This document shows positions 1-3,000 of a stretch of 6,704 nucleotides of DNA, piece by piece. The position numbers were made by a program. Every line of letters begins with the position of its first letter. Position 1 is the first letter of the stretch. Source of the DNA: a virus (taxonomy: Duplodnaviria > Heunggongvirae > Uroviricota > Caudoviricetes); IMG/VR virus record IMGVR_UViG_2711768018_000012; one strand, written 5' to 3'.

Positions 1-3000
1 CGCGGATTGAGCTGACGCCGGGCTATTTTCAGATAACCGCCACGCCGCATCTTGCGGTTTATGATCCGACGGTACAGTTTGAGTTCTGGTTCTCGGAAAA
101 GCGGATTGCGGATATCAGGCAGGTTGAAACCACAGCACGCTATCTTGGCACGGCGCTGTACTGGATAGCCGCCAGTATCAATATCAAACCGGGCCATGAT
201 TATTACTTTTATATCCGCAGTGTGAACACCGTTGGCAAATCGGCATTCGTGGAGGCTGTTGGTCAGCCGAGTGATGATGCATCCGGTTATCTGGATTTTT
301 TCAAAGGCGAGATAGGGAAAACCCATCTGGCTCAGGAGCTGTGGACGCAGATTGATAACGGTCAGCTTGCGCCTGACCTGGCTGAAATCAGGACGTCCAT
401 TACGGATGTCAGCAATGAAATCACGCAGACCGTCAATAAGAAACTGGAAGACCAGAGTGCGGCAATTCAGCAGATACAGAAGGTTCAGGTTGATACAAAT
501 AATAACCTGAACAGCATGTGGGCTGTGAAGCTGCAGCAGATGCAGGACGGACGCCTTTATATCGCGGGTATTGGTGCCGGTATTGAGAACACCCCTGACG
601 GCATGCAGAGTCAGGTGCTGCTGGCGGCGGACAGGATTGCGATGGTTAATCCTGCGAATGGCAACACAAAACCGATGTTTGTTGGTCAGGGCGATCAGAT
701 ATTCATGAACGACGTGTTCCTGAAACGCCTGACGGCCCCCACCATTACCAGCGGTGGAAATCCATCGGCATTTTCCCTGACTCCGGACGGAAAGCTGACC
801 GCTAAAAATGCGGATATCAGTGGCAGTGTGAATGCGAACGCCGGGACGCTCAACAATGTCACGGTAAATGAAAACTGTACGATTAAGGGCATGCTGGAGG
901 CGACTCAGGTCAGAGGTGACTTCGTTAAAGCTGTATCCAAATCATTTCCGAAACAGGCTGGTACGTGGGGTAACACGGAAACACCAAACGGGACGGTTAC
1001 AGTCACCATAAGCGATGATCATAACTTTGACCGCCAGATTATTATTCCGCCCATTATTTTTAACGGTATAGCGTATGACGATCCGGGGAGCGGAAATAAC
1101 CCAGGAGGCACGCGATACACGGGTTATGGTTTTGAAGTTCGCAAAAACGGCGTATTAATCGCATCCAGAGAAACTAAAGGTGCCATTCCCGGTAGTTACA
1201 GTGCAGTTATTGATATGCCTAGTGGTGGTGGTAGCGTCACTCTGGAGTTTAAGATTTTCCAGAAAGGCAATCAGGGGGCAGGCAATATCACCGACTGTAC
1301 GGTGATTGTGACCAAAAAAGCGGCTTCCGGCATCAGTATTCGTTGAAATATTTATAACCCCAATAAATGGCGTCAGGAATGACGCCTTTTTTATTGCAGA
1401 AAAGCGAGAGGTAATTATGCGTAAAGTTTGTGCAGCAATTTTGTCCGCAGCCATTTGTCTGGCCGTATCCGGTGCGCCTGCATGGGCGTCTGAACATCAG
1501 TCCACGCTGAGCGCGGGGTATCTTCATGCCCGGACCAACGTTCCCGGCAGTGATGATCTGAACGGGATTAACGTGAAATACCGTTATGAGTTTACGGATA
1601 CGCTGGGGCTGGTGACGTCATTCAGCTATGCAGGAGACAAGAATCGCCAGCTGACCCGTTACAGCGATACCCGCTGGCATGAAGATTCCGTTCGTAACCG
1701 CTGGTTCAGCGTAATGGCGGGGCCGTCTGTGCGCGTGAATGAATGGTTCAGCGCGTATGCGATGGCGGGTGTGGCTTACAGCCGTGTGTCGACTTTTTCC
1801 GGGGATTATATCCGCGTAACTGACAATAAGGGGAAAACGCACGATGTGCTGACCGGAAGTGATGACGGTCGCCACAGCAACACGTCTCTGGCGCACTGAC
1901 GGTTTCATCGTGGGTGTCGGTTATAAATTCTGATTAGCCAGGTAACACAGTATTATGACAGCCCGCCGGTTCAGGCGGGCTTTTTTGTGGGGTGAATATG
2001 GCAGTAAAGATTTCAGGTGTACTGAAAGACGGCACAGGAAAACCGGTACAGAACTGCACAATCCAGCTGAAAGCAAAACGTAACAGCACCACGGTGGTGG
2101 TGAACACGCTGGCCTCAGAAAATCCGGATGAAGCCGGGCGTTACAGCATGGACGTTGAGTACGGGCAGTACAGCGTTATTCTGTTGGTGGAGGGATTCCC
2201 GCCGTCACATGCCGGGACCATCACCGTGTATGAAGATTCCCGACCCGGTACGCTGAATGATTNCAAAAAGTGCTGCCGCTGCAGAGTCCTCAAAAAGCGC
2301 GGCGGCTACCAGTGCCGGTGCGGCGAAAACGTCAGAAACGAATGCGGCAGCGTCACAACAATCAGCAGCCACTTCTGCATCCACCGCGACCACGAAAGCG
2401 TCAGAAGCTGCCACCTCAGCCCGGGATGCGTCGGCTTCAAAAGAGGCGGCAAAATCATCAGAAACGAACGCATCATCAAGCGCCAGTAGCGCAGCTTCCT
2501 CGGCGACGGCGGCTGCAAATTCTGCGAAGGCGGCCAAAACGTCCGAGACGAACGCCAGGTCTTCTGAAACGGCAGCGGGACAGAGTGCCTCAGCTGCGGC
2601 AGGCTCAAAAACAGCGGCTGCGTCGTCTGCCAGCGCCGCGTCAACAAGTGCCGGGCAGGCCTCAGCCAGTGCCACCGCCGCCGGAAAATCGGCAGAAAGC
2701 GCCGCATCATCCGCTTCAACAGCCACAACGAAGGCTGGCGAAGCCACTGAGCAGGCCACGGCAGCAGCGAGGTCAGCTTCCGCAGCGAAGACATCCGAAA
2801 CGAACGCGAAAGCGTCGGAAACCCGTGCAGAATCCTCAAAAACGGCTGCCGCATCGTCCGCCAGTTCGGCGGCGTCATCGGCATCATCGGCGTCTGCTTC
2901 AAAAGATGAGGCGACCAGACAGGCGTCAGCAGCGAAGGGCAGCGCCACGACGGCATCCACGAAGGCGACAGAGGCTGCTGGTAGTGCGACGGCAGCAGCT

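What the first reader, a model, noticed from the sequence alone, without database searches (positions are those of the whole stretch)
2250..2290. Single ambiguous base sits on a frame-shifting junction inside stf
The stf frame changes by +1 exactly at the n (2263). Removing that base joins ...GTLND directly to SKSAAAAESSKSAAATSAG... in one frame. Compared with lambda Stf as I recall it, about 100 codons between these points are absent. The flanks are repeat-rich, so this may be an assembler join or collapse across the shaft repeats. Alternatively it is a real frameshift that splits stf, as in laboratory lambda, which lacks side fibres because of an stf frameshift.
Basis: partly seen in the sequence, partly recalled or inferred. 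Interest (0 to 1): 0.4.

Follow-up and report, generated by a model that had tools for sequence, protein, structure and literature searches.

The report
Assembly gap placeholder inside stf gene
The single "n" is not a mutation but a one-letter stand-in for 285 bases left out of the assembly, and with them restored the prophage side-tail-fibre gene reads as an ordinary intact 1027-codon gene.

Summary
There is one N at 2263, the stf frame shifts by +1 there, and deleting it joins ...GTLND to SKSAAAAE... in frame.

The N is a record artefact, not a frameshift. In every relative that spans the site, the window's two flanks abut a fixed 285-nt (95-codon) segment. These relatives include finished Shigella sonnei chromosomes that differ from the window at only 8 bases. 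Of 92 spanning loci, 90 have exactly 285 nt. Restoring the segment gives a continuous 1027-aa Stf, one residue different from the S. sonnei protein.

The junction as written was found nowhere: not in 5,426 complete E. coli genomes, IMG/VR or GTDB representatives. A control 49-mer from the intact boundary hits 14,324 places.

The window's two long N runs (542 and 464) also break frame. Each stands for 256 nt in relatives, so N-run lengths here are unreliable. Four IMG/VR scaffolds that share the window's lom deletion carry nine single-N joins between non-adjacent or paralogous prophage pieces.

It is an unfilled gap, not a repeat collapse. The breakpoints share one base, and the left one lies in the non-repetitive N-terminal domain. 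The lambda PaPa frameshift is at a different site. Interest is low.

The parts
1..1346 (+). 3' part of the tail tip gene J, cut by the left end of the window
   Evidence: Pfam PF09327 and PF12421 on ORF 222-1346. It aligns to annotated gpJ in L001-L004.
1417..1933 (+). lom, broken by an 83-nt deletion between two CTGGCG hexamers. The junction is at 1888-1893, and the ORF as written ends at 1899 (160 aa).
   Evidence: alignment to L001 lom, 199 aa. PF06316 positions 1-159 of 199. The same 160-aa product is encoded in finished S. sonnei chromosomes.
1998..2262 (+). stf 5' fragment, codons 1-88 plus the first base of codon 89
   Evidence: 99.7% identity to L001-L004 and to the S. sonnei loci.
2263..2263 (.). 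Single N: placeholder for a 285-nt (95-codon) stretch of stf that is absent from the record
   Evidence: The flanks abut positions 4363 and 4649 of L001. There are 285 nt between them in 90 of 92 spanning loci, and in all 10 loci L104-L113, which include finished S. sonnei chromosomes. The junction is absent from all collections searched.
2264..3217 (+). stf middle fragment: the last two bases of codon 184, then the Ala/Ser-rich shaft and the first tail-fibre repeat (reconstructed residues 185-502)
   Evidence: translation. 99.9% identity to L014 and L104-L113. PF03406 at reconstructed residues 462-502.
3218..3759 (.). 542-N run standing for 256 nt of stf (second tail-fibre repeat and what follows). 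Its length is wrong and breaks the frame.
   Evidence: Frame arithmetic is in the full report.
3760..5083 (+). stf 3' fragment (collar domain and C-terminal receptor-binding part), 100% identical to the S. sonnei loci
   Evidence: PF07484. 70% identity to lambda orf-314.
5083..5185 (+). tfa (tail fibre assembly gene), 5' fragment
5186..5649 (.). 464-N run standing for 256 nt of tfa (191 nt in S. sonnei 53G and CP026802). Its length is wrong and breaks the frame.
5650..5872 (+). tfa 3' fragment
   Evidence: Reconstruction gives a 193-aa Tfa with PF02413.
6622..6704 (+). Left end of an IS1 element. The window stops 83 nt into it.
   Evidence: divergence from the IS1-free L003 starts at 6622. IS1 genes are annotated at the matching place in L004 and L104-L113.

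Best explanation
Base 2263 is a gap character, not a nucleotide of the organism. It marks a join between two assembled pieces of one prophage side-tail-fibre gene (stf). It stands for 285 nt (codons 89-183 plus flanking codon parts) that the record omits. The apparent +1 frameshift arises because 285 bases, a multiple of three, were replaced by one character. The underlying gene is most likely an ordinary intact 1027-codon stf of the lom-defective lambdoid prophage found in Shigella sonnei.

The most likely cause is a short-read scaffolder that could not traverse a stretch sharing 41-60-nt exact words with paralogous stf genes in the same genome. It wrote a minimal one-N gap because its distance estimate was near or below zero.

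Shown: exact collinearity of both flanks with a fixed 285-nt segment in all relatives; absence of the junction elsewhere; wrong, frame-breaking lengths for the other N runs.

Inferred: that the source genome itself contains the 285 nt, and which program wrote the N.
For: (1) The flanks abut a 285-nt segment with no base lost or duplicated in L001-L003, in IMG/VR contigs L014 and L010, and in the 10 loci L104-L113. These include finished chromosomes HE616528.1 (S. sonnei 53G) and CP019689 (S. sonnei 75/02) (strain names from PMC5447701). Those loci differ from the window at only 8 bases outside the N runs.

(2) Of 92 loci that span the site, 90 have exactly 285 nt, one has 282 and one was not found. 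All 97 occurrences of the left flank continue into the FLGAM coding sequence (TTCT[C/T]GGTGCCA in 95, one variant and one lacking a T), never into CAAAAAG.

(3) Window flanks plus the L014 filler give a continuous 1027-aa Stf with one residue different from L014, and a 193-aa Tfa.

(4) The junction 49-mer has 0 hits in 5,426 complete E. coli genomes. A control 49-mer across the intact left boundary hits 4,695 genomes and 14,324 places, median 2 and up to 14 per genome. The pattern allowing 0-4 bases at the junction has 0 hits in GTDB representative genomes and in IMG/VR.

(5) The other two N runs also break frame as written. Both are restored by the 256 nt seen in relatives, so N lengths in this record carry no length information.

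(6) Four IMG/VR scaffolds with the same lom deletion (L010-L013) carry nine single Ns. None occurs in the other 99 loci examined. These Ns join non-adjacent or paralogous prophage pieces; for example, the L011 N at 4254 stands for 79 nt of J.

(7) In those scaffolds, paralogous stf copies share exact 43-nt and 41-60-nt words across the left breakpoint and just before the right one.

(8) The window ends 83 nt into IS1 and starts inside J, which are typical short-read contig limits.
Against: No reads or source record could be examined. The window itself was not found in any searchable collection, so the 285 nt in this particular genome is inferred from relatives.

A one-N gap for a 285-nt distance is a large under-estimate.

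Both long N runs correspond to exactly 256 nt. That is an odd coincidence for repeat-driven contig breaks and could point to deliberate masking by a data provider rather than a scaffolder. That would change who wrote the N, not what it means.

The statement that scaffolders such as SSPACE and ABySS write a single n for gaps estimated at or below zero rests on my own knowledge. Literature searches did not yield a citable passage.
Confidence: 0.93

Rival explanations
1. The deletion is real: the source strain has lost about 285 nt of stf and carries one extra, poorly called base at the junction. Under this reading stf is a frameshifted pseudogene and the prophage makes no side fibres.
For: The sequence as written reads this way. 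Pseudogenes do occur in this prophage: lom has a real 83-nt frameshifting deletion, and S. sonnei 53G has a 65-nt deletion in tfa.
Against: The junction is absent from 5,426 E. coli genomes, IMG/VR, GTDB representatives and all 113 fetched loci. Every near-identical copy has the 285 nt. There is only 1 nt of microhomology at the breakpoints, whereas the real lom deletion has 6 nt. The junction coincides exactly with the record's only isolated ambiguity character. The other N runs in the record are demonstrably of wrong length.
Confidence: 0.03
2. The join is chimeric: the N links contigs from two different paralogous prophages. Under this reading the 5' and 3' parts of the stf shown never belonged to one gene.
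For: Single Ns in scaffolds L011-L013 do join pieces of different paralogues, with flank identities to the window of 83-93% against 100%.
Against: Both flanks match the same S. sonnei prophage copy at 99.7-99.9%, in the right order and orientation. The window's cluster of 8 variant bases (1437-2333) spans both sides of the N, which argues for one continuous allele.
Confidence: 0.03
3. The Ns were written by whoever prepared the sequence collection, not by an assembler. Under this reading stretches were deliberately masked and replaced by N runs of arbitrary length.
For: Both long N runs replace exactly 256 nt, a power of two, yet are 542 and 464 long. The DNA search description says that some stretches in one collection are masked as N runs.
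Against: The first gap hides 285 nt, not 256. Single-N joins exist independently in public IMG/VR scaffolds of the same prophage and are clearly assembler products there, because they join non-collinear pieces.
Confidence: 0.2
4. The missing segment results from collapse of tandem shaft repeats, with repeat units merged by the assembler.
For: The shaft is Ala/Ser-rich with dispersed degenerate repeats, and the right breakpoint starts one of them (family D4).
Against: The left breakpoint lies in the non-repetitive PF08400 domain, after residue 88 of 134 profile positions. The breakpoints are not homologous to each other. TRF finds no array. A collapse would leave no N.
Confidence: 0.02

Closest known systems
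Scaffold gap written as a minimal N run in short-read draft assemblies
   Same: A non-ACGT character sits between two collinear pieces. Sequence is missing relative to finished genomes. The N length is unrelated to the true distance. The site is a multi-copy prophage gene. Scaffolds of the same prophage carry the same kind of single-N join.
   Different: The assembler or scaffolder used is unknown. Both long gaps in the same window hide exactly 256 nt, which ordinary scaffolding does not predict.
Lambda PaPa stf frameshift (orf-401 / orf-314), which removes side fibres from laboratory lambda
   Same: The gene is the same (stf, between lom and tfa), and the visible result is the same: stf read as two out-of-frame pieces. 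PMC12617516 confirms that laboratory lambda lacks side fibres because of a frameshift.
   Different: In lambda the sequence is continuous, with all flanking codons present, and the break is at the end of orf-401, around residue 395. Here 95 codons are missing, the site follows residue 88, and the shift is carried by an ambiguity character.
Intact Stf of the lom-defective lambdoid prophage of Shigella sonnei (e.g. 53G HE616528.1, 75/02 CP019689)
   Same: The flanks are 99.7-100% identical. The gene order J-lom(83-nt deletion)-stf-tfa-IS1 is the same. The reconstructed Stf is 1027 aa and differs from the L014 copy at one residue.
   Different: The window carries 8 variant bases clustered in 1437-2333. 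The window also lacks 285 + 256 + 256 nt, which are replaced by Ns.

Membership tests
Scaffold or record gap placeholder (artefact) | A non-nucleotide character at the junction | tested here: met
   N at 2263.
Scaffold or record gap placeholder (artefact) | Both flanks are collinear with finished genomes, with extra sequence between them | tested here: met
   285 nt between the flanks in L104-L113, which include finished S. sonnei chromosomes, and in 90 of 92 spanning loci.
Scaffold or record gap placeholder (artefact) | The junction as written exists in no independent sequence | tested here: met
   0 hits. The positive control hit 14,324 places.
Scaffold or record gap placeholder (artefact) | Other N runs in the same record also misstate length | tested here: met
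   542 N stand for 256 nt and 464 N stand for 256 nt. Both break frame as written.
Scaffold or record gap placeholder (artefact) | Reads from the source sample contain the missing sequence | not testable with these tools
   No reads are available and the source record was not found.
Lambda PaPa-type stf frameshift | A single-base indel in otherwise continuous coding sequence | tested here: not met
   95 codons are absent at the site.
Lambda PaPa-type stf frameshift | Located at the orf-401 / orf-314 boundary | tested here: not met
   The lambda orf-401 sequence diverges around residue 395. The window's N follows residue 88.
Tandem-repeat collapse | Breakpoints in register in homologous repeat units, with the missing length a multiple of the unit | tested here: not met
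   1 nt of shared sequence at the breakpoints. No tandem array. The left breakpoint lies in PF08400.
Lambda Stf side tail fibre family (the underlying gene) | PF08400 prophage tail fibre N-terminal domain | tested here: met
   Reconstructed protein residues 1-134 match profile positions 1-134 of 134, E = 1.4e-71. The window as written retains only residues 1-88.
Lambda Stf side tail fibre family (the underlying gene) | PF03406 tail fibre repeats, PF07484 collar domain and a lambda-like C-terminus | tested here: met
   70% identity to lambda orf-314 over 252 aligned positions, and 73% to orf-401.
Lambda Stf side tail fibre family (the underlying gene) | Position between lom and tfa, downstream of J | tested here: met

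The most novel reading that the evidence does not exclude
The break could reflect something real in the source culture. One possibility is a true deletion or rearrangement of stf codons 89-183, giving a side-fibre-less prophage. Another is a mixed population in which paralogous stf genes have recombined at this point, so that no single path existed for the assembler.
Probability: 0.04. Interest if true: 0.12.

Novelty: not a real feature. Interest (0 to 1): 0.04.

Why it matters
It matters only for data hygiene. Taken literally, the window would yield a false stf pseudogene call, and false frameshifts in stf and tfa at the other two N runs. N-run lengths in this record cannot be trusted for frame or length. 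Anyone annotating tail-fibre genes or predicting host range from draft Shigella or E. coli assemblies should treat single Ns inside multi-copy prophage genes as gaps of unknown size.

Tried and rejected
- Two exact-pattern scans of GTDB representative genomes found nothing. The collection holds one genome per species, and the window's lineage is evidently not the representative.
- I tried to find the source record with a window-specific 50-mer. This gave 55 IMG/VR and 33 metagenome loci. None is 6704 bases long and all have intact lom, so the source stays unidentified.
- The E. coli genome search for the lom deletion junction found nothing. At first this suggested an artefact. The exact-protein look-up then showed the allele is real and typical of Shigella sonnei, which that collection does not hold.
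- Literature searches for a citable statement that scaffolders write a single N for non-positive gap estimates were unproductive. That point is marked as my own knowledge.
- I considered a repeat collapse and a lambda PaPa-like frameshift. Both fail their defining features (see the membership test).
- I did not use structure prediction or the large protein searches. They could not bear on whether an N is a gap.

Full report
**Observation**

The window holds three stretches of non-ACGT characters: one N at 2263, 542 Ns at 3218-3759 and 464 Ns at 5186-5649. The ORF opening at ATG 1998 reads MAVKISG...YEDSRPGTLND up to codon GAT 2259-2261. The Ala/Ser-rich frame KSAAAAESSKSAAATSAG... begins at 2266, offset by +1. 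Deleting base 2263 gives one frame...GTLNDSKSAAAAE....

**What the N stands for**

A megablast of 1900-3217 against complete E. coli genomes and against phages always returned two pieces. These pieces cover 1318 query bases but 1602 subject bases.
- In E. coli C8 (L001) and phage PhiR68_2 (L002), the left flank ends at locus position 4363 and the right flank starts at 4649. Exactly 285 nt lie between, and no flank base is lost or duplicated.
- The hidden piece encodes FLGAMTEDDARPEALRRFELMVEEVARNAS...TASTKATEA, which is 95 codons.
- Lambda orf-401 has 96 residues between the same landmarks.

**Near-identical copies**

The window's lom carries an 83-nt deletion between two CTGGCG hexamers. A scan for that junction found 10 IMG/VR contigs. 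An exact-protein look-up of the resulting 160-aa Lom found it in 1212 blocks of the public collection. These include finished chromosomes HE616528.1 and CP019689, which are Shigella sonnei 53G and 75/02 according to PMC5447701.
- The 10 loci fetched (L104-L113) and IMG/VR contigs L014 and L010 have no N in the aligned region.
- L104-L113 and L014 differ from the window at only about 8 bases in 1-3217. From 3760 onward six of the ten are identical; L106, L108, L111 and L112 have 4 mismatches in 5650-6704.
- They hold 285 nt where the window has the N. They hold 256 nt for the 542-N run.
- For the 464-N run they hold 256 nt, except 53G and CP026802, which hold 191 nt.
- Their stf is an uninterrupted 1027-codon ORF.
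- Window flanks plus L014 filler give a 1027-aa Stf with a single difference (S207L), and a 193-aa Tfa.

**All three N runs break frame**

As written, the shaft frame (codon start 2266, position mod 3 = 1) and the C-terminal frame (stop codon 5081-5083, mod 3 = 2) disagree. The tfa start (5083, mod 3 = 1) and its stop (5870-5872, mod 3 = 2) also disagree. Replacing 542 and 464 by 256 restores both. N-run lengths in this record therefore say nothing about real length. The frameshift at 2263 is one instance of a general property of the record.

**Population test**

- Across 103 loci fetched up to that point, all 97 occurrences of the 20-nt left flank continue into the FLGAM coding sequence: TTCT[C/T]GGTGCCA in 95, TTCTCGGTGCGA in L004, and a copy lacking one T in L095.
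- Of the 92 that extend far enough, 90 have the right flank at exactly 285 nt. One has it at 282 nt and one was not found.
- The junction as written (window 2239-2287) has no match in 5,426 complete E. coli genomes.
- A 49-mer across the intact boundary, searched in the same way, hits 4,695 genomes and 14,324 places. The median is 2 and the maximum 14 per genome.
- A pattern allowing 0-4 bases at the junction finds nothing in GTDB representative genomes or in IMG/VR.

**Why a break here**

This part is inference.
- The segment is multi-copy in most genomes.
- In IMG/VR scaffolds that carry the same lom deletion and also hold paralogous stf pieces, those paralogues share exact words with this gene. 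One 43-nt word spans the left breakpoint. Words of 41-60 nt end about 20 nt before the right breakpoint. Such sharing is enough to tangle a short-read graph.
- Four of those scaffolds (L010-L013) contain nine single Ns. The other 99 loci examined contain none. These Ns join non-adjacent or paralogous pieces; for example, the N at L011 4254 replaces 79 nt of J.
- The window starts inside J and ends 83 nt into IS1, the usual limits of a short-read contig.
- From my own knowledge, not from a tool result: scaffolders such as SSPACE and ABySS write a single n when the estimated gap is not positive and no overlap is found.

**Not a repeat collapse**

- The two breakpoints, AATGATT|TTCTCGG and GAAGCCT|CAAAAAG, share one base.
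- TRF finds no tandem array.
- The right breakpoint starts a dispersed degenerate 20-mer family.
- The left breakpoint lies in the unique N-terminal domain.
- Pfam PF08400 covers reconstructed residues 1-134 across all 134 profile positions. The N therefore cuts inside that domain, after residue 88.
- A real deletion here would truncate the attachment domain.

**Comparison with laboratory lambda**

Lambda PaPa lacks side fibres because of a frameshift in stf (PMC12617516). In NC_001416 this shows as orf-401 ending in ...DETNRKAHWTVRH, followed by orf-314. That break is about 300 codons downstream of the site discussed here, and the lambda sequence there is continuous. Incidentally, the homologous place in the window is where the 542-N run begins.

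**Rivals**

- A real deletion plus one ambiguous base (about 3%). It is contradicted by the absence of the junction anywhere, by the intact near-identical copies and by the lack of microhomology.
- A chimeric join of two paralogues (about 3%). It is contradicted by both flanks matching the same prophage, and by the window's 8 variant bases spanning both sides of the N.
- Deliberate masking by a data provider rather than a scaffolder. This is not excluded, and I put it at roughly 20% as the origin of the characters. It leads to the same conclusion about the biology.

**Unexplained**

- Both long N runs replace exactly 256 nt although they are 542 and 464 long.
- The 8 variant bases are confined to 1437-2333. 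At seven of them the window carries the base that is the majority in the intact-lom loci, although two of those positions (2165, 2192) were fixed by the pattern used to fetch most of those loci. The window nevertheless keeps the S. sonnei-type lom deletion. This could be a recombination patch, an earlier-branching lineage or paralogue cross-talk in the consensus.

**Verdict**

The underlying gene is an ordinary, most probably intact, lambda-family side-tail-fibre gene. Interest is low.

Noticed in passing
window 1888-1899 (lom): lom has an 83-nt frameshifting deletion between two CTGGCG hexamers, giving a 160-aa product instead of 199 aa. The junction is absent from 5,426 complete E. coli genomes. 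The exact product is encoded in 1212 blocks of the public collection, including finished Shigella sonnei chromosomes 53G and 75/02. The window therefore probably comes from S. sonnei or a close relative, and this lom pseudogene is real.
   Followed up: yes
window 3218-3759 and 5186-5649: The two long N runs (542 and 464 N) each replace exactly 256 nt in near-identical sequences. Both break the reading frame as written. The equal, power-of-two true length is unexplained.
   Followed up: partly
window 1437-2333: All 8 differences from the S. sonnei reference loci cluster here: 1437, 1458, 1692, 1713, 1952, 2165, 2192 and 2333. There are none in 1-1436, and outside the N runs none in 2334-6704 against L014 and six of the ten L104-L113 loci. 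At seven of the eight the window has the base that is the majority in the intact-lom loci, though 2165 and 2192 were fixed by the search pattern. This could be a recombination patch, a different lineage or paralogue cross-talk in the consensus.
   Followed up: partly
window 6622-6704: The window ends 83 nt into the left end of an IS1 element inserted downstream of tfa. The IS1 is present at the same site in the S. sonnei loci and in some E. coli loci (L004), but absent in L003.
   Followed up: yes
L106 (S. sonnei 53G) 9786-9850 relative to L104; also L112: Strains 53G and CP026802 carry a 65-nt frameshifting deletion in tfa, inside the stretch hidden by the window's third N run. Whether tfa is intact in the window's source therefore cannot be told.
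   Followed up: partly
L010-L013 (IMG/VR scaffolds): These scaffolds string together pieces of two or three paralogous lambdoid prophages (J, lom, stf) through single Ns. As viral genomes they are chimeric.
   Followed up: partly
L001 7122-8024 (E. coli C8): In this relative a macro-domain pseudogene is annotated between stf and tfa. The window has nothing comparable, because stf and tfa overlap at 5083.
   Followed up: no
window 2205-2960 and 2306-3073, minus strand: Long antisense ORFs (251 and 255 aa) run through the Ala/Ser-rich shaft. Lambda's record annotates a similar antisense orf206b. They look like by-products of the biased codon content, not genes.
   Followed up: no
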